Positions 39,942 to 55,039 of a DNA stretch of 64,000 nt are shown here, one piece after another. Made by a program: the position numbers and the translations under genes. The notes below the pieces were generated by a model. The model did not search any database. It had not been told where the DNA came from and worked only from the letters and a program-made list of their open reading frames with translations. Source of the DNA: a bacterium (GTDB lineage Bacteria > Bacillota_I > Bacilli_A > RF39 > UBA660); assembly GCA_044432745.1 (NCBI GenBank), contig JAWXUH010000006.1:1375-65374 (forward strand), given 5' to 3'. Position 1 is the stretch's first letter. Each line of letters starts with the position of its first letter.

Positions 39942-40001
39942 TTTCTTTTTATTTGCAATTATTAATACTACTATGATATTATGTTTTTAGGAGAGGTTTA
40001 T

Positions 40002-40532
40002 ATGGATAATTTTAAAAGAGAAGAATATTTAAGTTGGGATGATTATTTTATGAGTGTTAGTTTACTTGCATCACTTAGAAGTAAGGATCCATCAACTCAA
40101 GTTGGTGCTTGTATTGTAAGTAGTGATAATAGAATATTATCAACTGGTTATAACGGTGCTCCAACTGGTTATAGTGATGATGAATTTCCTTGGGGTAGAG
40201 AAAGTGAAAGTGCACTTGATAATAAGTACTTATTTGTAGTTCATGCAGAGAGAAATGCTGTATTAAATTATAGAGGTAGCATGAAGGATTTTGTTGGCGC
40301 TAAGATATATGTTAATTTATTTCCATGTAACGAATGTGCAAAAGAATTAGTTCAAACTGGAATTAAAGAAGTTGTATACGTATCTGATAAATATTCAGAT
40401 ACTGATGAAGTAAAAGCTTCGAAGATGATTTTTGATAAATGTGGTGTTATTTATAGAAAACATGAAAGTATTAATGTTGATTTAATAACAGAAAAAATTG
40501 AAGAAATCTATGGAAATGAGAAATCTAGATGA
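40002..40532 (+). CDS. dCMP deaminase (ComEB-like cytidine/deoxycytidylate deaminase).
   Basis: HAERNA...PCNECAK zinc-binding motifs. Start ATG at 40002 after aggagagg. Confidence 0.8.
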   Translation: MDNFKREEYLSWDDYFMSVSLLASLRSKDPSTQVGACIVSSDNRILSTGYNGAPTGYSDDEFPWGRESESALDNKYLFVVHAERNAVLNYRGSMKDFVGAKIYVNLFPCNECAKELVQTGIKEVVYVSDKYSDTDEVKASKMIFDKCGVIYRKHESINVDLITEKIEEIYGNEKSR

Positions 40533-40604: not shown

Positions 40605-41741
40605 ATGAAAACTTTATTATCTAGAAAATTTGAATATGAATATAAGAATTATGTAAATATATTAAAAGAATATAAAATAGATACAGATTTAGAAAATAAA
40701 AATTTATTTGAAATATTATATTACGACGTTTCGTTATGTGAAAAAATAGATTTTTTAGAAAAAAATACTTTAAAACAAATATGTGATTTTATTTATAATG
40801 TATCAAATGAATTTAGTGATTGGAAAAGTCTTGTTGAGTATTTTTCTAGTTATAATTTTGTTATAAATAATAATAGGGAATATAATCTAATTAATGGTAA
40901 TTATGATTTAAATGAACTTTCCTTATCAGAAGAAGATATTTTTATAATAAAGGAACTTAGTAATTTATATAAACTTGCTTTATATGAACTTTGTTATCTT
41001 AAAAAAAATAAGGATTATTTATCTATACCATTAGATCATCTTATGAATGTTAAGAATAGTGCTTCCCTTAGTTTAAATCAAATTGTAAAAAGTGAAATTA
41101 TTAATTCATCGTATGGTAGAATTAATAATTTAACTTATACATTATTAAATGATTTAAAGGAAGAGAAGCTTCTTGAACTTCATACTAAATGTAGAGAATA
41201 TTCATTTTTAAGTATTAAAAATGGTATTTATAAAGCTCCAGAATCATATTGTCAAGTTTCTTCAAGTGCTAATCTATTTTTAGTAAGAAGTACTTTTAAA
41301 CTTAGTAATGAAGTAGGTAGTTTAGATATCGAAGAATCTAATATTTATAATTGTAATCTAATTTCTACATTATCACCAAATGTACCTGTATTTTCAGATA
41401 ATCATATAATAGTAGGGTATAGTGATATAGAAAGTGATCAAATATTATTTGTATCAAACACTGATATATCTTTAGGTACTGAAGATGAAATACCACTTTG
41501 TTGTTTATACGATATAAAAGAGTTAAATGAAAGAACATGTATTAATAATACATATAATGAAATTTTAATATCTTCAGTTGATAAATATGGTAATGAAATT
41601 AAACCTTCATATATAGTTCAAAGAGATGAGCTTGATGTTGATTCTCTTTCATATGCTAAAAGTATAGATAAACCAATTGTTAGAATGAGAACAAATAAAA
41701 AAACAAATGATTATAATATCTTATCAAATTTAAAAAACTAA
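40605..41741 (+). CDS. Divergent fourth member (P4) of the uncharacterised paralog family (378 aa).
   Basis: Shares the N-terminal architecture plus SSYGRINN, LLELHTKCREY, NELNERT, KPSYIVQR and KPIVRMRTNKK. It lacks the SVYP and PYDAYT motifs. Confidence 0.75.
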   Translation: MKTLLSRKFEYEYKNYVNILKEYKIDTDLENKNLFEILYYDVSLCEKIDFLEKNTLKQICDFIYNVSNEFSDWKSLVEYFSSYNFVINNNREYNLINGNYDLNELSLSEEDIFIIKELSNLYKLALYELCYLKKNKDYLSIPLDHLMNVKNSASLSLNQIVKSEIINSSYGRINNLTYTLLNDLKEEKLLELHTKCREYSFLSIKNGIYKAPESYCQVSSSANLFLVRSTFKLSNEVGSLDIEESNIYNCNLISTLSPNVPVFSDNHIIVGYSDIESDQILFVSNTDISLGTEDEIPLCCLYDIKELNERTCINNTYNEILISSVDKYGNEIKPSYIVQRDELDVDSLSYAKSIDKPIVRMRTNKKTNDYNILSNLKN

Positions 41742-41775: not shown

Positions 41776-42636
41776 TTATTTTCTTGTTCTAGAAGTATTT
41801 TCTAAATAGTCCTCAAAGGTATTAATTTTAGTTTCATTTATTTTTTCTAAGTATTCTAAATAATACTCTATGAATTCTGATAACTTCATTTGATTTGATA
41901 AAAAAACTTTATAATAATCCTTAAAGTTTTTACCTTCTATATTACATGATTTTAGACATCCTTCTAAATCTTTATTATGTACAAAAAATAATCTATTTCC
42001 AAAATACATTTGTACTTTTTTAAAATCTTTATTCTTTTGTATATTAAATGAATCAGTATCTATAAATTTAAAAGTTTTATCATCTATGCAAAATAAAAAA
42101 TTATTGGCATGTAAATCACTAGCTTGAATATCTGCCTTAGTTAATCTTTTTAAATCTGCTTCAGCTTTAAGTATTGCTTGTTTATATTCTTCAATAGTTA
42201 AACCTTCACTAAGTGTATGTATACTACTATTATTTATGTATTCTGTTATATATCCTCTTAGTACTATTCTAGATGTAGCATTTAAATGATATATTAACTC
42301 TCTTGGAAAAACTATATTAGGCAAATTTAAAGATGCAAAATATTCCATTTTTTGCATATCAAAGTCATCTCTAAAAGTTTCTTTATATATTTTTGTTTTG
42401 TCATTATTAATATATATTGAACCATTGTCACCTGAGCTTAGATATGTTGAATATTCTTCTTTAATTGTACTATCTAGTGGTTTACTATATTCAAAAAAAT
42501 CTGCTTCAAATAATTTGATAACCTCTGGATCATTAATGCTTTTTTTATATAATATATTAAAATCATTAATAAAATTTATTCTATCTTGTCCTATTAATTT
42601 TTTTTCTTGTAATTCAATTAACTTATCTTTCATAAC
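41776..42636 (-). CDS. Kinase-fold protein (APH/CotS/choline-kinase-like).
   Basis: DLHANNFLF (HxDxxxxN-like catalytic loop) and FIDTDS (DFG-like). True start at MKDK, with RBS aaaggag. The first 24 codons of the listed ORF overlap the promoter. Confidence 0.55.
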   Translation of the reverse strand, partial: VMKDKLIELQEKKLIGQDRINFINDFNILYKKSINDPEVIKLFEADFFEYSKPLDSTIKEEYSTYLSSGDNGSIYINNDKTKIYKETFRDDFDMQKMEYFASLNLPNIVFPRELIYHLNATSRIVLRGYITEYINNSSIHTLSEGLTIEEYKQAILKAEADLKRLTKADIQASDLHANNFLFCIDDKTFKFIDTDSFNIQKNKDFKKVQMYFGNRLFFVHNKDLEGCLKSCNIEGKNFKDYYKVFLSNQMKLSEFIEYYLEYLEKINETKINTFEDYLENTSRTRK

Positions 42637-42781
42637 AAACTCCTTTTTTAATTCGTATATAGTAACACTATAAAATGAAAAAAACAACATAATTGTTACT
42701 TTTTTCATTTTTTTATAATAACTTATTTCATGTGTGTTATTATATATATATGAAAAGTATTTAGAAGGAGAAAATCTACAA

Positions 42782-44194
42782 ATGTTTAGTAAAATTAAAA
42801 AAATAAGTATTCCTCAAGGGGAAAATAATGAAGATATAGTAGGTAGTGGTGATAATTATATCTACTGTATTGATGGAGCAACTGGTCTTAGTAAGATAAA
42901 TATTATGGATAAAGACAGTGATGCTATGTGGTTTGTAAAAAAAACTGCTTCATTGTTAGATACATTACTAATAGATAATAACAAATCTTTAAGTGATATA
43001 TTAAAACAATGTATGAAAGATATCGAATCAGAAATATTATTAAGAAAAGAAGAACTTTTTTTAGATGATTATGATTATCCAAGTGCAGGTATAGCTATTG
43101 CTAGAATTGTTAATAAAGATAATCTAGAAATTTTAAGATTAGGTGATGTTCTTGTAAATATATTTGATAAAAATAATAATATAGTTAATATGCATGATGA
43201 TAAATTGCCTGAACTTGATGATTATGCTATTAATATGCAAGTTCAGTTAGCAAAAGAAAATAACATATCAGTAAGGGAAGCTCGTAATCTTATTAATGAT
43301 ATTTTACTTGTTAATAGAAAAAAAATGAATACAGAAGATGGTTATTTTATATTAGATCCATCAGGAAATGGAATTGATAAAGCTGATATTGAAGAATTTA
43401 ATATATCTAATTTAGACAGTATTTCTTTAATGAGTGATGGATATTACTGTATATCTGATACTTATAATATAGTAGATAGTTTTAAATCCCTTCATATGGA
43501 AATGAGACTAAATAAATTACAATCTTTATATGATAAAATGCACTCTATTCAAGAAGAAGATTTAGATTACAACAAGTATCCTAGATTTAAAATGAGAGAT
43601 GATTCAAGTGTAATATTTGCATCATTACGTGAACGCAGTATAGTATTTGCTAGTAATAATAAAGGTAAGATAAAAGAAATAACAGATATAATCAAGGGTG
43701 TTTATATTCTTTCTCTTGATGATCTTGGAGTTGATATAGATGTTTTAGAAGATCAAAATACTTTTGAAAAGAATGCGTTAAAAAAAGCTAAAGAAATATA
43801 TGATTTAGTAGGTATACCTGTTATTGCAGATGATTCTGGATTATGTATTAAAGAACTTGATAATTGGCCAGGAGTTATTACAGATAGATTCTTAGGTGAA
43901 GGTGCTACTACAGAAGAAAAGAATGATTATATAATAAATAAGGTTTCAAAATTAAAATCAAGAGAAGCTTATGTAAATTGTTCTCTTTGTTATTATGATG
44001 GTGAGCAAACTATAATTGTTTCTGAAAAAATAGAAGGTAATATTTCTTTAGAAAAAAGAGGTATAAATGGTTTTGGTTTTGATGAAATATTTGAACTACC
44101 AAATAAAAAAACTTTAGCAGAACTTACAATTGATGAAAAAAATGAATTAAGTTCTAGAAAAAAAGCAGCTATGTCATTATTACAAAAAATCTAA
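42782..44194 (+). CDS. Fusion protein: N-terminal PP2C-like (SpoIIE-type) phosphatase-like domain plus C-terminal RdgB/Ham1 non-canonical NTP pyrophosphatase.
   Basis: C-terminus IVFASNNKGKIKEI...ADDSGL...GFGFDEIF matches the Ham1/RdgB family. N-terminus has CIDGATG and LMSDGYY, resembling PP2C DGxGG/SDG motifs. ORF 42734-44194, with the start ATG at 42782 after aaggagaaa. Confidence 0.6.
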   Translation: MFSKIKKISIPQGENNEDIVGSGDNYIYCIDGATGLSKINIMDKDSDAMWFVKKTASLLDTLLIDNNKSLSDILKQCMKDIESEILLRKEELFLDDYDYPSAGIAIARIVNKDNLEILRLGDVLVNIFDKNNNIVNMHDDKLPELDDYAINMQVQLAKENNISVREARNLINDILLVNRKKMNTEDGYFILDPSGNGIDKADIEEFNISNLDSISLMSDGYYCISDTYNIVDSFKSLHMEMRLNKLQSLYDKMHSIQEEDLDYNKYPRFKMRDDSSVIFASLRERSIVFASNNKGKIKEITDIIKGVYILSLDDLGVDIDVLEDQNTFEKNALKKAKEIYDLVGIPVIADDSGLCIKELDNWPGVITDRFLGEGATTEEKNDYIINKVSKLKSREAYVNCSLCYYDGEQTIIVSEKIEGNISLEKRGINGFGFDEIFELPNKKTLAELTIDEKNELSSRKKAAMSLLQKI

Positions 44195-45892: not shown

Positions 45893-46767
45893 TGAGTTTA
45901 ATAAAAACAATAAATGAACTTAAAAACGTATTTCCATCTATTGTAACTAATGAATTTATAAATACTATGCCTAGAAGAGAATTAACTGATTACGAAAAAT
46001 CTTTACCGTATTCTAAGTATTATTTTAAGGATATGGCAAAAATACCACAAGAAGATTTAGATATTGTTAACAAAGGTCCAGTAAATTCAAAAAGTGTAAT
46101 AGATATGCACAATATATCTAAATTATTTGATAAAGGATATTTAGAAATTGAAAATGGATATTGTTATATGAATGATGGAACAGGTTTTGCAGCTAGTAAA
46201 GTTTTTATGAAAGATGTAGAACTTGAGATGTTAGATTGGTGGTTTAATTGGCATCCTTTAGAAGATTTAAGATATGCTATTTGGTGTCCTGTTGCTCATA
46301 ATGGAACTAGTGTAAAAACCCCTAATGAGCATCTTGATTCAAGTGGAGTTGACTTAAAGGTAAGAAATTATAATAAGACTCACTATCCAGATGAAGGTTT
46401 TAATTTAAATGGACATGAAGTTTTAACTATTAATTTTAAAGATCCAAGTCAACTAGGTTTTGATATAAAAGATAATCATGTTTATCTTGCAAGTGTAACT
46501 CGTAGAGTATTATTTTTCAATTTACCAGTAGCAACATTTGTACACTGCGCAAGAAAAGTAGAAGGTGGAACTGAATTTAGAAGTAGGTATTACCAAAGTG
46601 TTTATATAAATAAAAAAGGTAAATTTAAAAAATCAATTATTAAGTTTCCAAAAAGTGTAGTAGAATCACTTGCTAGAAATAATTGTTTACATAGTTTAAC
46701 TGAATATAACAACTTAGCATCTATTTTACCAAGTTTGTATAAAGAAGAAAGAGGAGAAATAAAGTGA
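45892..46767 (+). CDS. Hypothetical protein, possibly a phloretin/DAPG-hydrolase (PhlG)-like fold. Function unassigned.
   Basis: 291 aa. WWFNWHPLEDLRYAIWCPVAH segment. Coupled to neighbours by ATGA and GTGA overlaps. Confidence 0.45.
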   Translation: MSLIKTINELKNVFPSIVTNEFINTMPRRELTDYEKSLPYSKYYFKDMAKIPQEDLDIVNKGPVNSKSVIDMHNISKLFDKGYLEIENGYCYMNDGTGFAASKVFMKDVELEMLDWWFNWHPLEDLRYAIWCPVAHNGTSVKTPNEHLDSSGVDLKVRNYNKTHYPDEGFNLNGHEVLTINFKDPSQLGFDIKDNHVYLASVTRRVLFFNLPVATFVHCARKVEGGTEFRSRYYQSVYINKKGKFKKSIIKFPKSVVESLARNNCLHSLTEYNNLASILPSLYKEERGEIK

Positions 46768-48239
46768 AAGAAAAAGATAATAAAAACGATGTTGAAAAAG
46801 ACATAGAAAAAGAAATAACTGAAGTTAGTGTAAAAAAGGCTAAATTATGGCAATTAGGATTATTTGCACTTAACAATTCGGCAACAAATGCATTTCATTT
46901 TTTCATGACATATATAGCATACTTTGCAAGTGGAGTTGGTGGAGTTGCTTTTGTTACTGCATCATACGTAATGACTGGTATGAGAGTCTTTGATGCATTT
47001 ACAGATCCTGTAATAGGATTTTTAATAGATAAGTTAAATTTAGGTAAGGCAGGTAAATTTAGACCTTGGATGTTATTAGGTAATGTTTTAATGACTATTG
47101 CTTTAATAATCCTAATATTTGGAATGACATCTGTTCCATCAAGTTTAAGTTTATTATTTTTTATAGTATGTTACTTCATATATATTTTAGGTTATACTTG
47201 CCAAACAGCTTGTACTAAAGCAGCACAAAGTTGCTTAACAAAAGATCCTAAACAAAGACCACTTATTTCAATGTTTGATTCACTATTTTCAATAATGTTA
47301 ATGGGTGGATATGGTATATATGTAACAAAGTTTTTAATACCTAAACATGGAGATTATAATGAAGCGTTATTTAATGAATTTGTAGTAGTAGCAATAGTAA
47401 TAGCATTTATATGTACTATACTTGCAATTATAAGTTTATGGAACGAAGATGTTGTTGCTCCAAGTAAGAAAGTTAAAAAAGAAAAAATTAAAATGTCTGA
47501 GTATGTAACTATTGTTAAGCATAATGATGCATTAAGAAAATTAATGCCAGCTGCTGCACTAGACAAATTAGCTGCTTTAGTAGCTAATAATCCGACAACA
47601 ACTTTAATATTGTTTGCTCTTATTATAGGGAATTATGAATTATCTGGAATGATGACATTCTTTATGTTACCTCCAATGATTGTTATTATATCTATAGGTA
47701 CAAAAATGTGTCAAAAACATGGTATGAGAAATGTTATATTATTCTCAAAATCAATATCTGTAATTATGTGTTCTATAATGTTCTTTATAATGATGTTTGC
47801 AGATATATCTTATATAAAAGAAGGAGGCGCTAACATTATGTTATATGTATTCTTATTCTTTTATATATGTGAAATGGCACTTAGATCATTTTGTACATCA
47901 ACATTTACTCCAATGATTGCAGATTGTATAGATTATGAACAATCAATTACTGGAAATGAGAATCCTGCAATGATTGGAACTATGTATTCTTTAGTAGATA
48001 AGTTTGTTTCAAGTTTATCTGCAACTGTAGCTGCACTTGCAGTAGCTGCAGTAGGTTTTAAAGAAGTTGCACCATCAGTTAATACTGAGCTTACAACTCC
48101 TTTATATATAGTAGGTATATTACTAGTATTATTACTTCCTATAATATCAAATGCATTTACAATTGTTCAAATGCTAATGTATCCATTAAGTAAAGAAAAA
48201 ATGGAAGAAATTCAATGTAAAATAAAGAAAGAGGTTTAA
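46764..48239 (+). CDS. GPH-family (glycoside-pentoside-hexuronide:cation symporter) MFS transporter, likely a glucuronide/hexuronide carrier.
   Basis: GTG start after agaggag. RVFDAFTDPVIGFLIDK signature. About 12 TM helices. Confidence 0.7.
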   Translation: MKEKDNKNDVEKDIEKEITEVSVKKAKLWQLGLFALNNSATNAFHFFMTYIAYFASGVGGVAFVTASYVMTGMRVFDAFTDPVIGFLIDKLNLGKAGKFRPWMLLGNVLMTIALIILIFGMTSVPSSLSLLFFIVCYFIYILGYTCQTACTKAAQSCLTKDPKQRPLISMFDSLFSIMLMGGYGIYVTKFLIPKHGDYNEALFNEFVVVAIVIAFICTILAIISLWNEDVVAPSKKVKKEKIKMSEYVTIVKHNDALRKLMPAAALDKLAALVANNPTTTLILFALIIGNYELSGMMTFFMLPPMIVIISIGTKMCQKHGMRNVILFSKSISVIMCSIMFFIMMFADISYIKEGGANIMLYVFLFFYICEMALRSFCTSTFTPMIADCIDYEQSITGNENPAMIGTMYSLVDKFVSSLSATVAALAVAAVGFKEVAPSVNTELTTPLYIVGILLVLLLPIISNAFTIVQMLMYPLSKEKMEEIQCKIKKEV

Positions 48240-48243
48240 ATAT

Positions 48244-49980
48244 ATGTTAGATTACAAAAAAGCTCCTTTTAATTTAGGAGACGAGGAAATAAAATGGGTA
48301 GAAGATACTTTTAAAGAACTGAATGATTTTCAAAAAGTAAACCAAGTTATCATTGATATGGCTTGGAGCCCAGAAGAAAAAGATTTGAAAAATGATGTTG
48401 CTAAACATAACTTTGGTGGTTATAGATATCATAATACAAGTGCAGAAAGTTTATTTAACCAAAATAGTATTATTCAAAAAGGTAAAATACCTGCATTAAT
48501 AGCAGCTAACGTTGAAGGTGGCGGAGACGGTGGTGTAAAAGGTGGAACTAAGATTGGTGATCCTGTTGCACTAGCTGCTACTGGAAATCCAGAAAATGCT
48601 TATTACATGGCATACTATGGTTGTAAAGAAGCTGCTGCGGTAGGATGCAACTGGACATTTTCTCCTATAGTTGATATTGATATTAACTGGAGAAATTGTA
48701 TTATTTCAAATAGATCTTTTGGTCAAGATACAGATACTGTACTAGAATTTTCTAAGGAATATTTAAGAGGTGCAAAAGACGCTGGAGTTGAATGTTGTAT
48801 GAAACATTTCCCAGGTGATGGTTGTGATGATAGAGATCAACATTTATGTGTTACTATAAACGATTTATCTACGAAAGATTGGGATAAAACATTTGGTAAA
48901 GTGTATAAAGGTATGATTGATGCAGGAGTATCTTCTATAATGGTAGGACATATGGTATTGCCATCTTATCAAAAGAAATTTAGACCTGAACTTAAAGATG
49001 AAGATTTAATGCCAGCAACACTTGCTCCAGAATTATTACAAGATTTACTTAGAGATCAATTAGGCTTTAATGGACTTGTTATTACAGATGCAACACATAT
49101 GCTAGGATTAACAGCAACTATTCCAAGAAGAGAATTTATGCCTGGTGTAATAATGGCTGGATGTGATATGGTACTGTTTATGAGAGATACTGATGAAGAT
49201 ATTAAATATATGATGGATGCTCTTGAAGATGGAAGATTAACTAGAGAAAGATTAGATGAAGCAGTAAAAAATGTTCTTGCTTATAAAGCAATGATGAAGT
49301 TGCCTAAAAAACAAAAAGATAATACTATTATGCCATCGGCTGATGCTAGATCTATAATAGGATGTATTGAACATAAAGAAAAAGCTAAACAAATATTAGA
49401 TGAATCTATTACTCTTGTAAAAAATACGAGAAAACAATTACCACTTGATCCTATAAAACATAAAAATGTAATTGTTTATTCTGCAACTACAGCAAGTGCC
49501 GTAGCTAAATTAGCAGGTAATGCACCTGTTGAAAAGAAATTGGTAGACGCACTTAATGCTAGAGGTTTTAATGCTGAATTATATAAATTAAATCCTTTAA
49601 AACTTGTAACTAGAAAAGGTCTTAATGGTAAGAAGTTATTAAGTGGTACACCGATAGAAGAATTTAATAAGAAATATGATGCATGTTTCTTAATATGTGA
49701 TGTTACAGGTTATTCAGAATCAAATGGAAGAAGTATTAAATGGAAAATTCCTATGGGACCAGAAATACCTTGGTATGTAACTGAGTTACCTACAGTGGTA
49801 ATTAGTACAGCGTGGCCATTTCATTTACATGATTTGCCTATGGTGCCTACATATATTAATACTTATAATTCATCAGAACTTGCAATAGAGATGACTGTTG
49901 ATAAAATTATAGGTAAATCAGAATTTAAAGGAGTTAGTCCAGTAGATGCATTCTGTGGTTCTTGGGATACAAAAAAATAA
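48244..49980 (+). CDS. Glycoside hydrolase family 3-like protein.
   Basis: KHFPGDG and GFNGLVITDA GH3 motifs. Confidence 0.65.
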   Translation: MLDYKKAPFNLGDEEIKWVEDTFKELNDFQKVNQVIIDMAWSPEEKDLKNDVAKHNFGGYRYHNTSAESLFNQNSIIQKGKIPALIAANVEGGGDGGVKGGTKIGDPVALAATGNPENAYYMAYYGCKEAAAVGCNWTFSPIVDIDINWRNCIISNRSFGQDTDTVLEFSKEYLRGAKDAGVECCMKHFPGDGCDDRDQHLCVTINDLSTKDWDKTFGKVYKGMIDAGVSSIMVGHMVLPSYQKKFRPELKDEDLMPATLAPELLQDLLRDQLGFNGLVITDATHMLGLTATIPRREFMPGVIMAGCDMVLFMRDTDEDIKYMMDALEDGRLTRERLDEAVKNVLAYKAMMKLPKKQKDNTIMPSADARSIIGCIEHKEKAKQILDESITLVKNTRKQLPLDPIKHKNVIVYSATTASAVAKLAGNAPVEKKLVDALNARGFNAELYKLNPLKLVTRKGLNGKKLLSGTPIEEFNKKYDACFLICDVTGYSESNGRSIKWKIPMGPEIPWYVTELPTVVISTAWPFHLHDLPMVPTYINTYNSSELAIEMTVDKIIGKSEFKGVSPVDAFCGSWDTKK

Positions 49981-50003
49981 TTAGACAGTAAGGAGAGATA
50001 AAA

Positions 50004-51047
50004 ATGAAAATGACATTTAGATGGTATGGCGATGATGATAAAGTTACTTTAGATAATATCAGACAAATACCTAATATGAGTGGAGTGGTTACAGCAGTAT
50101 ATTCAACTCCTGTTGGAGAAGTATGGAGTAATGAAGAAATACTTTCTCTTAAAGAAACAATAGAAGCTAAAAATTTAGAAATGGAAGTTATTGAAAGTGT
50201 TCCTGTACATGAAGATATTAAACTTGGTAGAGGAGATTACTTAAGATATATAGAAAATTATAAAGAAAATATTAGAAGACTTTCAAAAGCAGGAGTAAAA
50301 GTTATATGTTATAACTTTATGCCTGTCTTTGACTGGACTCGTAGTCAACTTGATAAAGAATTACCAGATGGTTCTAATGCACTTGTTTTTTATAAAGAAC
50401 AAGTAGATAAAATGGATCCAGTAAGTGGTGATTTATCTTTACCTGGTTGGGATTCAAGTTATACAAAAGAAGAAATGAACGAACTTATTTCTTCTTATAA
50501 AGAACTTGGAGAAGAGGGTCTTTGGAAAAATCTAGAATATTTCTTAAAAGAGATTATTCCAGTAGCAGTTTCTGAAGACGTAAAAATGGCTATACATCAG
50601 GATGATCCGCCTTGGAGTATATTTGGTATTCCTAGAATTATCGTTGATGAACCTAGTATAGATAGATTTTTAAATATAGTGAATGTAGAACATAATGGTT
50701 TAACTTTGTGTTCAGGTTCTCTTGGTTGTTCACCAAAAAATGATTATGCACATATGGTACGTAAATACGGTGCAATGGGTAGAATTCATTTTGCTCATTT
50801 AAGAAATATATTAATACTTGAAAACGGATTTGAAGAAGCAGCTCACTTTTCAAGTTGTGGTTCCCTTGATATGGTAGATATATTAAAAGCTTATCATGAA
50901 GTAGGTTACAAAGGATATATTAGACCAGATCATGGAAGAATGATTTGGGGAGAAACTGGTAGACCAGGATATGGTTTATATGATAGAGCACTAGGTGCAT
51001 CATACATAAACGGTATTTGGGAAACTTTAGACAAATTAAATAAATAA
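50004..51047 (+). CDS. uxuA: Mannonate dehydratase.
   Basis: [12 protein letters not shown]...VTAVYS N-terminus and overall length match UxuA. Confidence 0.8.
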
Positions 51048-51071
51048 ACTTAAATAAAAGGAGGATTAAAT

Positions 51072-52466
51072 ATGAAAAAATTTTTAGATAATGATTTTTT
51101 ACTTGAAAATGATGTTGCAAAAACTTTATTTCATGAATATGCAAAGGATATGCCTATTTATGATTATCATAATCATTTAAGCCCTAAAGAAATATATGAT
51201 GATGTTAAATTTGATAATATTTCTAAATTATGGCTTGGTGGTGATCATTATAAATGGAGAGTAATGCGTGCTAATGGTATAAGTGAAGATTTTATTACTG
51301 GAGATAAAAGTGATTATGAGAAGTTTTTAGCTTATGCTAAAACTGTTCCTTATACCTTGGGTAATCCTTTATACCACTGGACACATTTAGAGCTTCAAAG
51401 ATATTTTAATATCTTTGAAACTTTAGATGAAAAAAGTGCACAAAGTATTTATGATAGATGTAATGAATTGTTACAAACTGATGAATTTTCTGTTAGAAAT
51501 TTAATTAGAAAATCAAATGTTAAAGTACTTTGTACAACTGATGATCCTAAAGATAATTTAATGCATCATAAACTTTTAAAAGAAGTAGGATTTGAATGTA
51601 AAGTATTACCTTCCTTTAGACCAGATAACTTAATACATATAGAGAAACAAAGTTTTATACCATATTTAAATTCTTTAAATGAAATTGGTTATAATGTTCA
51701 TGAGTTTAACGATGTACTTGCTTTTTTGAAAAAGAGAATAGAGTACTTTAATGACGTTGGATGTAGAGTATCAGATCATGGACTTGATATGATAATGTAT
51801 CATGAATCTAATATAGAAGAAGTATCTGAGATATTTTTAAAAGCTAAAAATGGTATTGAACTTAGTGTGCTTGAGTTGAAAAAATACAAAGGATTCTTAC
51901 TTAATTATTTAGGTAAAGAATATAATAAAGTAAACTGGGTTATGCAATATCATATTGGTCCACTTAGAAATAATAATACTAGATTATTTAATCAAGTAGG
52001 ACCAGATACTGGATTTGACTCTATTAATGATGGTAGTGTAGCAGTTGATTTATCTAAATTATTAGATAGTATGGATGTAACAGATGAACTTCCTAAAACA
52101 GTTTTATATTGTTTAAATCCATCTGATAATGCCGTACTTGCTGCTATGGCTGGTAATTTTCAAGATGGTAAAACAATTGGTAAAATTCAATTTGGTTCTG
52201 CATGGTGGTTCCTTGATACTAAACAAGGTATTATCAAACAACTAGAAGATTTATCTTCAGTAGGATTATTATCTAGATTTATAGGTATGCTTACAGATTC
52301 TAGAAGTTTTGTATCTTTTCCAAGACATGAATACTTTAGAAGAATACTTTGTAATGAAATAGGTAAACTTGTAGAAAATGGAGAATATCCTCTTGATTAT
52401 GAAATATTAAAAGAAATAGTAGAAGGTATTTGTTTTAATAATATAAATAATTATATAAATAATTAG
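51072..52466 (+). CDS. uxaC: Glucuronate isomerase.
   Basis: DFLLENDVAKTLFHEYAKDMPIYDYHNHL matches the UxaC N-terminus. 464 aa. Confidence 0.85.
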   Translation: MKKFLDNDFLLENDVAKTLFHEYAKDMPIYDYHNHLSPKEIYDDVKFDNISKLWLGGDHYKWRVMRANGISEDFITGDKSDYEKFLAYAKTVPYTLGNPLYHWTHLELQRYFNIFETLDEKSAQSIYDRCNELLQTDEFSVRNLIRKSNVKVLCTTDDPKDNLMHHKLLKEVGFECKVLPSFRPDNLIHIEKQSFIPYLNSLNEIGYNVHEFNDVLAFLKKRIEYFNDVGCRVSDHGLDMIMYHESNIEEVSEIFLKAKNGIELSVLELKKYKGFLLNYLGKEYNKVNWVMQYHIGPLRNNNTRLFNQVGPDTGFDSINDGSVAVDLSKLLDSMDVTDELPKTVLYCLNPSDNAVLAAMAGNFQDGKTIGKIQFGSAWWFLDTKQGIIKQLEDLSSVGLLSRFIGMLTDSRSFVSFPRHEYFRRILCNEIGKLVENGEYPLDYEILKEIVEGICFNNINNYINN

Positions 52467-52481
52467 AAAGGTAAAACATAT

Positions 52482-54095
52482 ATGGATATGAATATAAAAT
52501 CACTAAGTGATAAAGAAAAATGGAATAAAATTGGGGTTGAAGTTCCTAAGTTTGATATAAATCAAACAGCTCTTAATACAGATGCTAGAGCAGAGTGGGT
52601 ACACTTTGGAGCTGGTAATATATTTAGAGGTTTTATCGCTAATATAAATCAAAGACTACTTAATAAAAATTTAGTAGATACAGGAATTGTTGCTGTAGAT
52701 ACATTTGATTTTGATATTATTGATAAAATATATAAACCTTTTGATAATTTAACAATGCTTGTTAGTTTGAATTCAGATGGTACTAATAAAAAAGAAATTA
52801 TGGCAGGTGTATCTAGAGCTTATAAAGGAAGTTCTCAGTATGATGATTATAATAAACTTATTGAAATATTTGAAAATGATAGTTTGAAAATGGTAAGTTT
52901 TACTATAACTGAAAAGGGTTATTCTTTAAAAAACATTACTGGAGAATATTTAGATGTTGTATCATCTGATATATCTAATGGACCTGATAGTCCTAAACAT
53001 GTTATATCTATAATAACTTCTCTTGTATATAAAAGATATTTATCTGCTAAAAAGAAACTTGCACTTTGTTCAATGGATAATTGTTCACATAATGGAGAAG
53101 TACTTAAGAAGTCAGTTATTAATATGGCAACTGAGTGGTTAAATAATAATTATGTAGAAGAAGATTTTATTACTTATTTAAATGATGAGAATTATATTAG
53201 TTTCCCTTGGAGTATGATTGATAAAATAACTCCTAGACCTGATGATTCTATATGTAGTGATTTAGAACAAAGTGGTCTTAATAATATGAAACCAATTGTT
53301 ACAAGTGTTAATACATATATAGCTCCTTTTGTTAATGCAGAAGTAGCCGAATATCTAGTTATTGAAAATAATTTTCCAAACGGATCTATTCCTCTTAATG
53401 AAGGTGGAGTTTATTTAACTGATAGAGATACTGTTAACAAAACAGAAACTATGAAAGTTACTACTTGTTTAAATCCACTTCATACAGCACTTGCTGTATA
53501 TGGTTGTCTTCTTGGTTATGATAGGATTTATAAAGAAATGAATGATCCTTTATTAAGTAATTTAGTTAAAAAAATAGGTTACGAAGAAGGTTTAAAAGTA
53601 GTAGTTGATCCTAAGATTATTTCTCCTAAAGAATTTATAGATGAAGTAATAAATGAAAGATTAACTAATCCTTTTATACCAGATGATCCTGCTAGAATAG
53701 CAACAGATACAAGTCAAAAAGTTGGTATTAGATTTGGTGAAACAATTAAATCTTATATAAAAAGTGAAGAACTTGATGTTCAAAACTTAGTATATATACC
53801 ACTAGCAATAGCAGGGTGGATGAGATATTTACTAGGTGTAGATGATAATGGAAATACATTATCACTTAGTCCAGATCCAATGCTTGATCAATTAACTTTA
53901 GTTTTATCTTCTATTAAACTTGGAGGAGAATACAATAATGAATTAACTAGCATTCTTACAAATGAAACAATTTTTGGAGTAAATTTAGTAGAGTGTGGTC
54001 TTTCTAATAAGATAGAAGAAATGTTTATTAAGATGATTGTAGGTAATAATGCAGTACATAATACACTTAATGAATACTTAGGTAAGGAGATATAA
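52482..54095 (+). CDS. uxuB: Fructuronate reductase / D-mannonate oxidoreductase (mannitol dehydrogenase family).
   Basis: FTITEKGY and AIAGWMRYLLGVDDNGN...DPMLDQL match UxuB (LTVTEKGY, GVAGWMRYTQGVDEQGN...DPMLAEF). Confidence 0.7.
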   Translation: MDMNIKSLSDKEKWNKIGVEVPKFDINQTALNTDARAEWVHFGAGNIFRGFIANINQRLLNKNLVDTGIVAVDTFDFDIIDKIYKPFDNLTMLVSLNSDGTNKKEIMAGVSRAYKGSSQYDDYNKLIEIFENDSLKMVSFTITEKGYSLKNITGEYLDVVSSDISNGPDSPKHVISIITSLVYKRYLSAKKKLALCSMDNCSHNGEVLKKSVINMATEWLNNNYVEEDFITYLNDENYISFPWSMIDKITPRPDDSICSDLEQSGLNNMKPIVTSVNTYIAPFVNAEVAEYLVIENNFPNGSIPLNEGGVYLTDRDTVNKTETMKVTTCLNPLHTALAVYGCLLGYDRIYKEMNDPLLSNLVKKIGYEEGLKVVVDPKIISPKEFIDEVINERLTNPFIPDDPARIATDTSQKVGIRFGETIKSYIKSEELDVQNLVYIPLAIAGWMRYLLGVDDNGNTLSLSPDPMLDQLTLVLSSIKLGGEYNNELTSILTNETIFGVNLVECGLSNKIEEMFIKMIVGNNAVHNTLNEYLGKEI

Positions 54096-54097
54096 AT

Positions 54098-55039
54098 ATG
54101 AATATAAAATTACCACCAATAGTACCTGTTGTATCTATTGAAAAGATAGATGATGCTCTTCATATTACAAAAGCACTTCTTGATGGAGGAATTTCTTGTA
54201 TTGAAGTTACTCTTAGAACGGATGATGCAATTGATGCTATTAAAATGATTAAAAATCATTATCCAGCTATGACTGTTGGTGCAGGAACTATTATTAATAT
54301 AGAACAAATAGATCTTGCTATAGATGCAGGAGCAGACTTCTTAGTTAGTCCGGGTTTAAATGTCAATGTAGTTAAATATGCACAAGAAAAAAATATAATC
54401 ATTTATCCAGGATGTACTAATTCATCTGATATAGAACTTGCTATAAGTCTTGGTGTTACAGATTTAAAATTCTTTCCTGCTGAATCATCAGGTGGAATAA
54501 ATATGATTAAATCTTTATGTGCACCATATGATATGATTAGATTTATGCCAACAGGTGGAATTACAAATGATAATATTAATGAATATTTAAAATTTGATAA
54601 AGTTATTGCTTGCGGAGGATCATTTTTAATAAATGAAGAAATATTAAGAAATAGAGATTATAAACAAATAACTATAAATTGTAAAAATACTCTTAAAAAT
54701 ATTTTAGATTTAGATGTTAAACATGTAGGTATAAATGTAAACAATAATGAAGATTGTTTTAGTATAGCTAATAATCTTGAAAATTTACTTTGTACTGAAA
54801 AGATTGAAACTGGTAATTCATATTTTATAGGAGATATAGAAATTTTAAAAGATTGTCCTTATAAAAAAGGATATATATCTTTAGAAACAAATAATCTTTA
54901 TAGAGCTATATCTTACTATGAATCAATGAATGTACATTTTAATTATTCTACTGCAACGTATAGTGATAGTAATAAATTATCTAGTATCTTTTTTGAAGAT
55001 GAAGTAGCTGGTTATGCTTACAAACTAATTCAAAAATAG
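54098..55039 (+). CDS. eda: KDPG/KHG aldolase (Eda) with an ~100-aa C-terminal extension.
   Basis: GISCIEVTLRT and KFFPAESSGG aldolase motifs. The C-terminal 100 aa have no counterpart in canonical Eda. Confidence 0.75.
   Translation: MNIKLPPIVPVVSIEKIDDALHITKALLDGGISCIEVTLRTDDAIDAIKMIKNHYPAMTVGAGTIINIEQIDLAIDAGADFLVSPGLNVNVVKYAQEKNIIIYPGCTNSSDIELAISLGVTDLKFFPAESSGGINMIKSLCAPYDMIRFMPTGGITNDNINEYLKFDKVIACGGSFLINEEILRNRDYKQITINCKNTLKNILDLDVKHVGINVNNNEDCFSIANNLENLLCTEKIETGNSYFIGDIEILKDCPYKKGYISLETNNLYRAISYYESMNVHFNYSTATYSDSNKLSSIFFEDEVAGYAYKLIQK

What the first reader, a model, noticed from the sequence alone, without database searches (positions are those of the whole stretch)
41776..44194. 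Divergent pair: kinase-fold protein facing a PP2C-like::Ham1 (ITPase) fusion
The minus-strand gene has an HxDxxxxN-like loop (DLHANNFLF) and IDTDS, as in APH/CotS/choline-kinase folds. The divergently transcribed 470-aa protein has an unmistakable RdgB/Ham1 C-terminal half. Its ~290-aa N-terminal half carries CIDGATG and LMSDGYY, which are reminiscent of the PP2C/SpoIIE phosphatase DGxGG and SDG motifs. I do not know of a fusion of a PP2C-like module to a house-cleaning NTP pyrophosphatase. Together with the kinase it could form a small signalling or nucleotide-surveillance unit. It is also adjacent to paralog P4.
Basis: partly seen in the sequence, partly recalled or inferred. Interest (0 to 1): 0.6.

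Follow-up and report, generated by a model that had tools for sequence, protein, structure and literature searches.

The report
One-off PP2C phosphatase–Ham1 fusion beside kinase
In one uncultured low-GC gut-type bacterium, a PP2C-type phosphatase has been welded directly onto the ordinary nucleotide-cleaning enzyme RdgB/Ham1 and sits next to a small protein-kinase-like gene, but neither the fusion nor the pairing occurs in any relative, so it looks like a lineage-specific curiosity, not a new conserved system.

Summary
The + strand gene (42782-44194, 470 aa) is a seamless fusion. Its C-terminal half is RdgB/Ham1 (Pfam E 2.6e-52). Its N-terminal ~283 aa is a PP2C-fold phosphatase domain (AF2 pLDDT 95; Foldseek hits only PPM phosphatases, E ~3e-9). 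All four metal-binding Asp motifs are intact (NED, DGATG, SDG, DD).

The divergent − strand gene (41776-42633, 285 aa) has a protein-kinase fold. Its catalytic residues K84, D173, N178 and D192 are intact. It lies nearer Hanks-type kinases and NleH/OspG than APH/CotS/choline kinases.

The interpretation as a functional unit has no comparative support:
- The PP2C-like domain belongs to a family of standalone ~280-aa proteins. I examined 53 loci from other organisms, and none has a Ham1 domain or this kinase family nearby. About 21 carry a TPR/membrane partner instead.
- None of 10 loci holding kinase relatives has a PP2C-like or Ham1 gene.
- The nearest Ham1 domains found are fused to many unrelated domains (DHH, HD_4, ASCH, GNAT, YkuD). 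This suggests opportunistic fusion in these AT-rich lineages.

Verdict: a real, apparently unique domain architecture built from known parts. Functional coupling is unproven. Interest is modest.

The parts
41776..42633 (-). Gene for a 285-aa minimal protein-kinase-fold protein (NCBI MFI3260960.1, 'hypothetical'). Residues ~60-285 form the kinase core. Residues 1-55 are a low-confidence helical extension shared only with its closest homolog, P0122.
   Evidence: ORF. AAGGAG ribosome-binding site before ATG 42633. The exhaustive HMMER search found 74 relatives. Alignment A3 has invariant K84 and D192 and near-invariant G68, D173 and N178. The profile hits PknB 4eqm (E 1.8e-7) and NleH1 (E 2.7e-7). 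AF2 pLDDT is 83.7 and Foldseek top hits are all protein kinases.
42058..42117 (-). Kinase catalytic segment: D173-L-H-A-N-N178 (42100-42117) and I-D192-T-D (D192 at 42058-42060). The β3 Lys K84 lies outside this span at 42382-42384.
   Evidence: Conserved columns of A3. Coordinates were checked by translation.
42634..42781 (.). 148-bp AT-rich divergent intergenic region that must hold both promoters. It contains an 18-nt imperfect palindrome at 42672-42711.
   Evidence: Sequence. Inverted repeat I3. The promoter scan found no more sites than shuffled sequence.
42782..43630 (+). PP2C-fold phosphatase domain (aa 1-283) of the fusion protein (NCBI MFI3260961.1). Motifs: NED (D18, 42833-42835), DGATG (D31, 42872-42874), GD (D122), SDG (D219, 43436-43438), YPRFK (aa 266-270) and DD (D273-D274, 43598-43603).
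   Evidence: 120 homologs, all standalone proteins of ~280 aa. Alignment A1 gives the invariant residues. The profile hits tPphA 2j82 with motifs aligned. AF2 pLDDT is 95.2. Foldseek hits Stp1, PstP and tPphA at E ~3e-9, probability 1.0.
43622..43645 (+). Fusion junction ...VIFASL-RER-SIVFASNN.... The linker is about 3 residues. There is no internal start codon or ribosome-binding site for a separate Ham1 product.
   Evidence: DNA and translation. Homologs of the PP2C-like domain end 2-8 residues after the DD motif's strand. Ham1 relatives begin with M(I/V)FASNNKGK.
43637..44194 (+). RdgB/Ham1 non-canonical purine NTP pyrophosphatase domain (aa 286-470). Motifs: SNNKGKIKE, TFEKNALKKA, DDSGL, PGVITDRF, GFGFDEIF and SSR (in place of SHR).
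   Evidence: Pfam PF01725 E 2.6e-52. NCBIfam PRK14822 E 1.1e-45 and TIGR00042 E 6e-41. PDB hits: S. aureus 4bnq E 3.6e-24 and E. coli RdgB 1k7k E 4e-22, aligned end to end.
40605..41741 (+). Neighbour only: 'paralog P4', 378 aa, no recognisable family. It is convergent with the kinase gene, with a 34-bp gap.
   Evidence: 33-38% identity to the ORFs at 28823-29992, 30044-31234 and 31247-32422. No Pfam, PADLOC, PHROGs or PDB-sequence match.

Best explanation
The + strand gene encodes a lineage-specific, end-to-end fusion of two independently functional enzymes.

- The C-terminal half is the housekeeping RdgB/Ham1 enzyme. It hydrolyses (d)ITP/XTP to the monophosphate plus pyrophosphate.
- The N-terminal half is an Mn2+/Mg2+-dependent PP2C-fold phosphatase. 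It belongs to an uncharacterised subfamily marked by NED, DGATG, GD, SDG and YPRFKxxDD motifs. This subfamily is otherwise always a standalone ~280-aa protein in Clostridia and relatives, and it often follows a TPR/membrane protein.
- The fusion most probably arose opportunistically. In these AT-rich lineages the rdgB gene is repeatedly found joined to whatever lies beside it. The fusion therefore need not create a new coupled activity.
- The divergently transcribed neighbour is an active-looking minimal Ser/Thr-type protein kinase from a rare family. It may supply phosphoprotein substrates for the PP2C half, as in ordinary bacterial kinase/PP2C pairs, but only adjacency argues for this.

Shown: the domain identities, the intact catalytic residues, that the fusion is real, and that the fusion and the pairing are not conserved. 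Inferred: the enzymatic activities, the opportunistic origin of the fusion, and any kinase-phosphatase coupling.
For: Domain identities:
- Ham1: Pfam E 2.6e-52 and full-length alignment to solved RdgB structures.
- PP2C: AF2 pLDDT 95.2 and exclusively PPM phosphatase matches.
- All 15 invariant and 13 near-invariant family residues are retained in the fused copy, including the four metal-ligand Asp motifs and the third-metal Asp of GD.
- Kinase: protein-kinase fold with K84/D173/N178/D192.

The fusion is real: the identical protein is on 9 contigs from several runs, and the junction is seamless with no internal start.

Not a conserved unit:
- All 119 other homologs of the N-terminal domain are standalone.
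- In the six-frame HMM census of 69 loci, only the window's own organism combines any two of the three families.
- The closest kinase homolog (45% identity) sits among nusB, xseAB, rpoZ, rpsI and obg.

Opportunistic fusion:
- The nearest Ham1 domains found (49-58% identity) are fused to DHH, ASCH, DUF5677, HD_4, GNAT, YkuD, an NrtR winged-helix domain, a 2-oxoacid_dh fragment or an unknown 285-aa domain, at either end.
- One 90%-identity cluster holds both fused (396 aa) and unfused (197 aa) forms.
- A dCMP deaminase 64% identical to the window's lies near another such Ham1 fusion. This suggests the Ham1 position is old and the N-terminal partners vary.
Against: - Retention of every conserved residue in both halves, and an almost linker-less junction, would also fit a selected, coupled bifunctional enzyme.
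- Several Ham1 fusion partners in relatives are nucleotide phosphoesterases (DHH, HD_4). That pattern may not be random.
- The apparent excess of fused Ham1 proteins is biased. Only the 8000 candidates sharing most words with a long AT-rich query were scored, so the true fraction of fused Ham1 genes is unknown.
- No relative shows PP2C-like and rdgB genes as adjacent separate genes. The simple 'lost stop codon between neighbours' route is therefore not documented.
- The window protein's own PP2C_2 score is below Pfam's cut-off.
- No activity has been measured.
Confidence: 0.6

Rival explanations
1. Cognate kinase/phosphatase module. The minimal kinase and the PP2C half form a reversible Ser/Thr phosphorylation switch sharing one divergent control region. 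The Ham1 half is either the regulated output (phospho-control of nucleotide sanitation) or a sensor. A toxin-antitoxin or defence-like logic, as in the KKP kinase-kinase-PP2C module, is one version of this.
For: - The two genes are adjacent and divergent across a 148-bp region.
- Both catalytic residue sets are intact.
- PP2C genes commonly lie next to Hanks-type kinases in bacteria (PMC12088040).
- A PF13672 phosphatase neutralises toxic kinases in KKP (PMC11341870).
- Ham1-like proteins can act as sensors in a defence system: the KomB chain appears among the PDB hits at E 4e-10. The role of KomB is from my own knowledge.
Against: - The two families do not co-occur in any of the 53 other PP2C-like loci or the 10 other kinase-family loci.
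- The closest kinase homolog is in a housekeeping locus without a phosphatase.
- The PP2C-like family's usual partner is a TPR/membrane protein, not a kinase.
- There are no PADLOC or PHROGs matches.
- The surrounding window is ordinary chromosome: ezrA, thiI, spoVAD, asnS and uronate catabolism genes.
- The Ham1 half resembles housekeeping RdgB far more than KomB (E 3.6e-24 against 4e-10).
- The layout (a divergent pair with a single kinase) differs from the KKP operon.
Confidence: 0.2
2. Coupled nucleotide-sanitising enzyme. The PP2C-fold half has been recruited to a small-molecule substrate and acts in series with Ham1. The reaction would be non-canonical NTP to NMP plus PPi, followed by NMP to nucleoside plus Pi, so that deaminated purine nucleotides are removed irreversibly.
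For: - The fusion is near linker-less.
- The closest Ham1 domains are also fused to nucleotide phosphoesterase domains, DHH and HD_4.
- The closest standalone PP2C-like relatives are flanked by HIT (L060, L051) or PHP phosphoesterase genes (L047, L048).
- The subfamily has no conserved basic residue at the position aligned with tPphA's Arg upstream of NED. That this Arg binds phosphate is from my own knowledge.
- The subfamily instead has invariant R179, R268 and K270 in the flap and in the loop beside the DD motif.
- A dCMP deaminase, a NUDIX protein and an HAD phosphatase lie nearby.
Against: - Every structural neighbour is a protein phosphatase.
- The family's widespread TPR/membrane partner points to protein-level signalling.
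- Ham1's other fusion partners include unrelated functions (YkuD, GNAT, DUF5677, a winged-helix domain), so fusion partners are not reliably informative.
- The HIT and PHP neighbours appear in only 2 loci each, among about 53.
- IMP and XMP are normal metabolites, so a dedicated second step has no obvious benefit (inference).
Confidence: 0.12
3. Artefact or decaying gene. The 470-aa ORF results from an assembly or sequencing error or a recent stop-codon loss, and one half is no longer functional.
For: - The architecture is a singleton cluster in 5.8 billion proteins.
- Some related Ham1 'fusions' contain only domain fragments: P0207 has a 2-oxoacid_dh tail and P0208 a truncated Ham1.
Against: - The identical 470-aa protein is found on 9 contigs from independent runs.
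- Both halves keep all family-conserved residues and full-length domain coverage.
- The N-terminal domain gives a confident AF2 model.
Confidence: 0.03

Closest known systems
Bacterial PPM/PP2C Ser/Thr phosphatases (tPphA, PstP, Stp1; Pfam PF13672 PP2C_2)
   Same: - The β-sandwich fold matches (Foldseek E ~3e-9, probability 1.0).
- The motifs align with tPphA: NED with NQD, DGATG with DGMGG, GD with GDS, and SDG with SDG.
- The DD motif before the last strand corresponds to motif 11.
   Different: - The window sequence scores below Pfam's gathering cut-off.
- No conserved basic residue upstream of NED.
- It has subfamily-specific invariant residues: R179, N183 and GY in the flap, and YPRFK just before the DD motif.
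- The usual genomic partner is a TPR/membrane protein rather than a kinase.
- Here alone, a Ham1 domain is attached at the C-terminus.
RdgB/Ham1/ITPA house-cleaning (d)ITP/XTP pyrophosphatases
   Same: Full-length domain match to the S. aureus, Coxiella and E. coli RdgB structures. The N/K/E, DDSGL and FG(F/Y)D motifs are conserved.
   Different: - It is fused to an N-terminal PP2C-fold domain.
- SHR is replaced by SSR, and FGYDP by FGFDE. Its closest relatives share both changes.
- Its scores fall just below the NCBIfam equivalog cut-offs.
Minimal or atypical protein kinases: NleH/OspG effector kinases, Pfam Kinase-PolyVal (PF18762), and Hanks-type kinases such as S. aureus PknB
   Same: - It has the Gly-rich loop, the β3 Lys, the DxxxxN catalytic loop and a DFG-equivalent Asp (IDTD).
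- The region after that Asp is short, with no recognisable activation-loop/APE segment.
- The family profile hits PknB (E 1.8e-7) and NleH1 (E 2.7e-7).
- 11 of 52 relatives touch Kinase-PolyVal and 2 touch OspG_kinase.
   Different: - The window protein itself matches no Pfam or NCBIfam model above noise.
- It is chromosomal, not in a phage, polyvalent protein or secretion-system context.
- No conserved αC Glu is evident.
- It has a 55-residue N-terminal helical extension.
- It is not close to APH, CotS or choline kinases.
Bacterial eSTK/eSTP gene pairs (PrkC-PrpC, PknB-PstP, Stk1-Stp1) and the prophage KKP kinase-kinase-PP2C toxin-antitoxin module (PMC11341870)
   Same: A kinase-fold gene lies next to a PF13672-type phosphatase gene.
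   Different: - The genes are divergent rather than in an operon.
- The pairing is not conserved in any relative.
- The kinase has no PASTA, FHA or CSD domains.
- The locus is not in a prophage.
- The phosphatase carries a Ham1 domain.

Membership tests
PPM/PP2C phosphatase superfamily | PP2C β-sandwich fold flanked by helices | tested here: met
   AF2 model pLDDT 95.2, pTM 0.92. The top 50 Foldseek PDB matches are all PPM phosphatases, E 3e-9 to 3e-6, probability 1.0.
PPM/PP2C phosphatase superfamily | Metal-coordinating Asp residues of motifs 1, 2, 8 and 11, plus the third-metal Asp | tested here: met
   D18 (NED), D31 (DGATG), D122 (GD), D219 (SDG) and D273/D274 are invariant in 57 sequences. 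The first four align with tPphA's NQD, DGMGG, GDS and SDG. The motif-11 assignment is by position before the last strand.
PPM/PP2C phosphatase superfamily | Conserved phosphate-binding Arg upstream of motif 1 | tested here: not met
   No conserved basic residue precedes NED in the family consensus (ISxPGxxxNED). tPphA has R at the aligned position.
Pfam PF13672 (PP2C_2) | Score at or above the curated gathering threshold (24 bits) | tested here: not met
   The window protein scores 19.6 bits, E 7e-4. Many family members carry a precomputed PF13672 assignment, so the family is a marginal or divergent branch of PP2C_2.
PPM/PP2C phosphatase superfamily | Mn2+/Mg2+-dependent phospho-Ser/Thr phosphatase activity | not testable with these tools
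   This needs a biochemical assay.
RdgB/Ham1 (PF01725; TIGR00042) | Full-length match to the family model above threshold | tested here: met
   PF01725 scores 177.9 bits against a cut-off of 22.5 and covers profile positions 1-185 of 186. The stricter equivalog TIGR00042 scores 139.8 against 145.35 and is just missed.
RdgB/Ham1 (PF01725; TIGR00042) | Catalytic and substrate-binding motifs (N/K/E near the N-terminus, DDSGL, FGYDP, SHR) | tested here: inconclusive
   SNNKGKIKE, DDSGL and GFGFDEIF are present. SHR is SSR, so the Arg is kept and the His is lost. The same substitutions occur in the nearest relatives. Their effect on activity is unknown.
Protein-kinase-like superfamily (Hanks-type and minimal kinases) | Bilobal kinase fold | tested here: met
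   AF2 pLDDT is 83.7 overall, with most of the core at 87-97 and a dip near residues 221-240. All top Foldseek matches in PDB and BFVD are protein kinases, probability 1.0.
Protein-kinase-like superfamily (Hanks-type and minimal kinases) | β3 Lys, catalytic-loop Asp and Asn, and metal-binding Asp | tested here: met
   K84 and D192 are invariant. D173 and N178 are at least 90% conserved in 52 sequences, and all four are present in the window protein.
   The window protein has no Pfam hit. Only 1 of 52 relatives hits Choline_kinase (E 0.004), against 11 for Kinase-PolyVal, 7 for ABC1, 2 for Pkinase and 2 for OspG. In PDB, spectinomycin phosphotransferase scores E 2.9e-4, against PknB and NleH1 at ~2e-7.
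Cognate eSTK/eSTP pair or KKP-type module | Conserved co-occurrence and operon organisation of kinase and PP2C genes | tested here: not met
   The genes are divergent, not co-directional. None of the 53 other PP2C-like loci or the 10 other kinase-family loci has both families. There is no PADLOC hit.

The most novel reading that the evidence does not exclude
The fusion is a selected bifunctional enzyme in which a PP2C-fold domain has been recruited to nucleotide metabolism. It could act in series with Ham1 on non-canonical nucleotides, or it could serve as a phospho-switch, driven by the neighbouring minimal kinase, that gates ITPase activity. Either way, it would be the first link between PP2C chemistry and nucleotide-pool sanitation.
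Probability: 0.12. Interest if true: 0.6.

Novelty: new variant of a known kind. Interest (0 to 1): 0.3.

Why it matters
If the two halves are functionally coupled, this would be an unusual use of the PP2C fold. It would also hint at how nucleotide house-cleaning can be regulated or extended.

Three by-products may be more useful than the fusion itself:
- An uncharacterised, well-conserved PP2C subfamily (DGATG/YPRFK) with a recurrent TPR-membrane partner.
- A rare family of minimal bacterial protein kinases.
- The observation that Ham1 domains in these AT-rich lineages are fused to many different partners.

As it stands, the fusion is a single-lineage event made of well-known enzymes. Its public annotation ('non-canonical purine NTP pyrophosphatase') only misses the N-terminal phosphatase domain.

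Tried and rejected
- **Single-sequence PDB searches.** Searches with either protein found nothing meaningful. Family profiles were needed.
- **Word-index homolog search for the kinase.** It found only the query itself. The exhaustive search was needed.
- **Conserved trio hypothesis.** I tested whether the window's 378-aa P4 equals the ~375-aa upstream partner of the PP2C-like genes, and whether the kinase equals the convergent 325-aa gene in Sinanaerobacter. Both were rejected: there is no similarity, and the partner-family HMM finds nothing in the window.
- **Defence-system or phage origin.** There are no PADLOC or PHROGs matches and no viral contigs with the PP2C-like family.
- **P0201 as a second PP2C::Ham1 fusion.** Its 54% query coverage suggested this. 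It was rejected because the extra alignment upstream of Ham1 is spurious and the N-terminal domain is unrelated.
- **Promoter and terminator scans.** They gave no more sites than shuffled sequence.
- **P1-P4 paralog family.** Its profile has no PDB sequence match.
- **Literature.** No paper in the held library links PP2C and Ham1 in bacteria.
Full report
**What is at the coordinates**

The window is ~24% GC. Between 41776 and 44194 lie two divergent ORFs.

The + strand ORF opens at GTG 42734. The ATG at 42782 is preceded by GAAGGAG and gives the 470-aa product that public gene callers also report (NCBI MFI3260961.1, 'non-canonical purine NTP pyrophosphatase').

The − strand ORF can be read from 42708 (310 aa). 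The ATG at 42633 has an AAGGAG ribosome-binding site and gives the 285-aa product called in public data ('hypothetical protein R3Y13_04550').

The two starts are separated by 148 bp of AT-rich DNA. The identical fusion protein is encoded on 9 contigs from several sequencing runs, so the fusion is not an assembly error.

**The fusion protein, C-terminal half**

Residues ~286-470 are a complete Ham1/RdgB domain.
- Pfam PF01725 scores E 2.6e-52 and covers positions 1-185 of 186.
- NCBIfam XTP/dITP diphosphatase models score up to E 1e-45.
- The domain aligns end to end with the solved S. aureus, Coxiella and E. coli RdgB structures (E 3.6e-24 to 4e-22).
- SNNKGKIKE, TFEKNALKKA, DDSGL, PGVITDRF and GFGFDEIF are all in place.
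- The usual SHR is SSR, a change shared with its nearest relatives.

I infer that it is an active (d)ITP/XTP pyrophosphatase. No second Ham1 gene is present in the 64-kb window.

**The fusion protein, N-terminal half**

On its own, the sequence gives only a sub-threshold PP2C_2 hit (19.6 bits against a cut-off of 24). It matches nothing in PDB by sequence.

A search of 5.8 billion proteins returned 120 relatives. Every one except the window protein itself is a standalone protein of mostly 263-312 aa, and many already carry PF13672.

In a 57-sequence alignment the invariant columns are D18 (NED), D31-G32-A33 (DGATG), P100, D122 (GD), R179, D219-G220 (SDG), D260, P267-R268-K270 (YPRFK) and D273-D274.

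The family profile hits the cyanobacterial PP2C tPphA (E ~1e-4). In that alignment NED matches NQD, DGATG matches DGMGG, GD matches GDS, and SDG matches SDG.

An AlphaFold2 model built on this alignment has pLDDT 95.2 and pTM 0.92. Its 50 best Foldseek matches in PDB are all PPM phosphatases, including Stp1, PstP, tPphA, PPM1K and ABI1 (E down to 2.7e-9, probability 1.0).

There are two differences from canonical PP2C:
- There is no conserved basic residue upstream of NED, where tPphA has an Arg.
- The subfamily has its own invariant residues in the flap (R179, N183, G187-Y188) and in the loop just before the DD motif (YPRFK). By topology these lie next to the catalytic centre (inference).

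**The junction**

The PP2C-like homologs end 2-8 residues after the strand that follows DD. Ham1 relatives start with M(I/V)FASNNKGK. In the window the sequence reads ...DDSSVIFASL-RER-SIVFASNNKGK, with no internal start codon or ribosome-binding site. This is an end-to-start join with about three linker residues.

**The kinase-like gene**

No Pfam model matches, and NCBIfam gives only a faint NleH hit. The word-index search found only the query itself.

An exhaustive HMMER scan of 1.84 billion cluster representatives found 74 relatives. One is 45% identical (P0122). The rest are ~225-245 aa and 19-27% identical to it in the alignment.

The alignment shows a Gly-rich loop (G68), an invariant Lys (K84, in IYK), the D173-x4-N178 catalytic loop and an invariant D192 (IDTD).

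Among the relatives, 11 of 52 touch Kinase-PolyVal, 7 touch ABC1, 2 touch Pkinase, 2 touch OspG_kinase and 1 touches Choline_kinase.

The family profile hits S. aureus PknB (E 1.8e-7), NleH1 (2.7e-7), PknG, NleH2, SteC and OspG. Spectinomycin phosphotransferase scores only 2.9e-4.

The AF2 model (pLDDT 83.7; most of the core from residue ~60 on scores 87-97, with a dip near residues 221-240; the N-terminal 55 residues are poorly predicted) matches eukaryotic-like protein kinases in PDB and BFVD.

It is thus a minimal protein-kinase-fold enzyme with a complete catalytic set. It is closer to Hanks-type and effector-type kinases than to APH, CotS or choline kinases.

**Is the pair, or the fusion, a conserved unit?**

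No. I collected these loci:
- 34 genome loci, 13 metagenome loci and several exact-match contigs that carry the PP2C-like family.
- 10 loci that carry the kinase family.
- 2 loci that carry the nearest Ham1 fusions.

A six-frame HMM census over all 69 loci found the PP2C-like family in 56, the kinase family in 13 and Ham1 in 5. The only loci holding more than one of the three are the three contigs from the window's own organism.

The PP2C-like family's recurrent neighbour is an upstream, often overlapping gene of ~370-450 aa. It has TPR motifs and apparent C-terminal membrane segments (inferred from hydrophobic stretches and weak Pfam hits). It is present in about 21 loci and absent from the window.

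The closest PP2C-like relatives (40-46% identity) have varied neighbours: HIT, PHP phosphoesterase and a transglutaminase-like gene.

The closest kinase relative sits among nusB, xseA, xseB, spoIVB, rpoZ, recX, rpsI, rplM and obg.

No PADLOC or PHROGs model matches either protein, and no viral contig carries the PP2C-like family.

The window itself is ordinary chromosome of a sporulating low-GC Bacillota-like organism. It carries ezrA, an iscS-like gene, thiI, spoVAD, asnS, a signal peptidase, NUDIX and dCMP deaminase genes, and a uronate catabolism operon.

**Where the fusion may come from**

Searching with the full-length protein found no second PP2C::Ham1 protein.

The nearest Ham1 domains found (49-58% identity, sharing the FASNNKGK, GFGFD and S(A/S)R hallmarks) are nearly all fused to something else:
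- DHH (P0196)
- ASCH (P0197, P0203-5)
- DUF5677 (P0198)
- HD_4 at the C-terminus (P0200, P0202)
- GNAT (P0206)
- a 2-oxoacid_dh fragment (P0207)
- an NrtR winged-helix domain with a truncated Ham1 (P0208)
- YkuD at the C-terminus (P0211)
- an unrecognised 285-aa domain (P0195, P0201)

One 90%-identity cluster contains both the 396-aa fused form and the 197-aa free form.

Near the P0201 fusion lies a dCMP deaminase 64% identical to the window's, as in the window.

I read this as rdgB being a frequent, labile fusion partner in these AT-rich lineages, with PP2C as one more partner.

There is a caveat. Only the 8000 candidates sharing most words with a long AT-rich query were scored. This favours long AT-rich proteins, so the fraction of fused Ham1 genes cannot be estimated from this search.

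**Mechanism and rivals**

Most likely (0.6), two independent activities are carried on one polypeptide by a lineage-specific fusion. These are Ham1 house-cleaning and a PP2C-type phosphatase with an unknown, probably phosphoprotein, substrate. Beside them is an active minimal kinase whose link to the phosphatase rests on adjacency alone.

The rivals are:
- A genuine kinase/phosphatase switch that controls or uses the Ham1 half (0.2). It has precedents in eSTK/eSTP pairs (PMC12088040) and in the KKP toxin-antitoxin module (PMC11341870). The complete lack of conserved co-occurrence contradicts it.
- A serial nucleotide-sanitising enzyme (0.12). The DHH and HD_4 fusions, the HIT and PHP neighbours and the unusual basic residues hint at it. 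The uniformly protein-phosphatase structural neighbours and the TPR-membrane partner weigh against it.
- An artefact or decaying gene (0.03). The nine identical contigs and the full conservation of both halves contradict it.

**Comparison with what is known, and novelty**

Each part belongs to a known superfamily. The membership table lists which defining features were met.

The PP2C::Ham1 architecture was not found in any other protein among the hits of two searches of the 5.8-billion-protein collection. A published survey of 3,573 PF13672 architectures mentions SpoIIE, zf-ribbon, Pkinase and PASTA but no pyrophosphatase. No paper in the held library links PP2C and Ham1 in bacteria.

It is therefore a new variant of known kinds, confined to one lineage. 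Interest is modest (0.3). The more reusable results are the uncharacterised DGATG/YPRFK PP2C subfamily with its TPR-membrane partner, the rare minimal kinase family, and the diversity of Ham1 fusions.

Noticed in passing
P0195-P0211; loci L064:7001-8437 and L065:4166-5764: The Ham1 domains most similar to the window's (49-58% identity) are almost all fused to other, unrelated domains at either end: DHH, ASCH, DUF5677, HD_4, GNAT, YkuD, an NrtR winged-helix domain, a 2-oxoacid_dh fragment and an unknown 285-aa domain. One 90%-identity cluster holds both fused and free forms. The search was biased towards long AT-rich proteins, so the frequency of fusion is unknown.
   Followed up: partly
L009:4895-6016, L007:3111-4247, L013:4865-6016, L035:105-1217 and about 17 more loci: The standalone PP2C-like (DGATG/YPRFK) genes are commonly preceded by an often overlapping gene for an uncharacterised ~370-450-aa protein. 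It has weak TPR hits and apparent C-terminal membrane segments. This looks like a conserved two-gene unit of unknown function, and the partner is absent from the window.
   Followed up: partly
window 28823-29992, 30044-31234, 31247-32422 and 40605-41741: A family of four paralogous ~380-395-aa proteins (33-42% identity) matches no Pfam, PADLOC, PHROGs or PDB-sequence model. Three sit in tandem between an iscS-like aminotransferase gene (27623-28747) and thiI (32453-33628). The fourth is convergent with the kinase gene.
   Followed up: partly
window 42672-42711: An 18-nt imperfect palindrome (AAAATGAAAAAAACAACA / TGTTACTTTTTTCATTTT, 89% complementary, 4-nt spacer) sits in the divergent intergenic region. 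It could be an operator, or chance in AT-rich DNA.
   Followed up: no
window 33869-36226 (− strand): A 459-aa protein with no family match lies next to a 309-aa AAA/TniB-like ATPase, on the opposite strand to most genes. GC skew is locally reversed (−0.26 at 34001-36000). This may be a transposon-like or inserted module.
   Followed up: no
L064:11406-11954 and window 39981-40532: A dCMP deaminase (64% identical between the two) lies 2-3 kb from the Ham1-fusion gene in both the window and the P0201 locus. This suggests an old linkage of rdgB and the deaminase gene in this group.
   Followed up: partly
L060:2323-2700, L051:3150-3488, L047:883-1659, L048:1292-2065: The closest standalone PP2C-like relatives are flanked by HIT-family genes (2 loci) or PHP-domain phosphoesterase genes (2 loci), both small-molecule phosphoesterase types. 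The sample is too small to call this an association.
   Followed up: partly
window 46764-55039: A co-directional sugar-acid catabolism cluster: an MFS_2 transporter, a GH3 glycosidase, UxuA, UxaC, a mannitol-dehydrogenase-family oxidoreductase and KDPG aldolase. It is ordinary, and it shows that the surrounding region is chromosomal housekeeping DNA.
   Followed up: no
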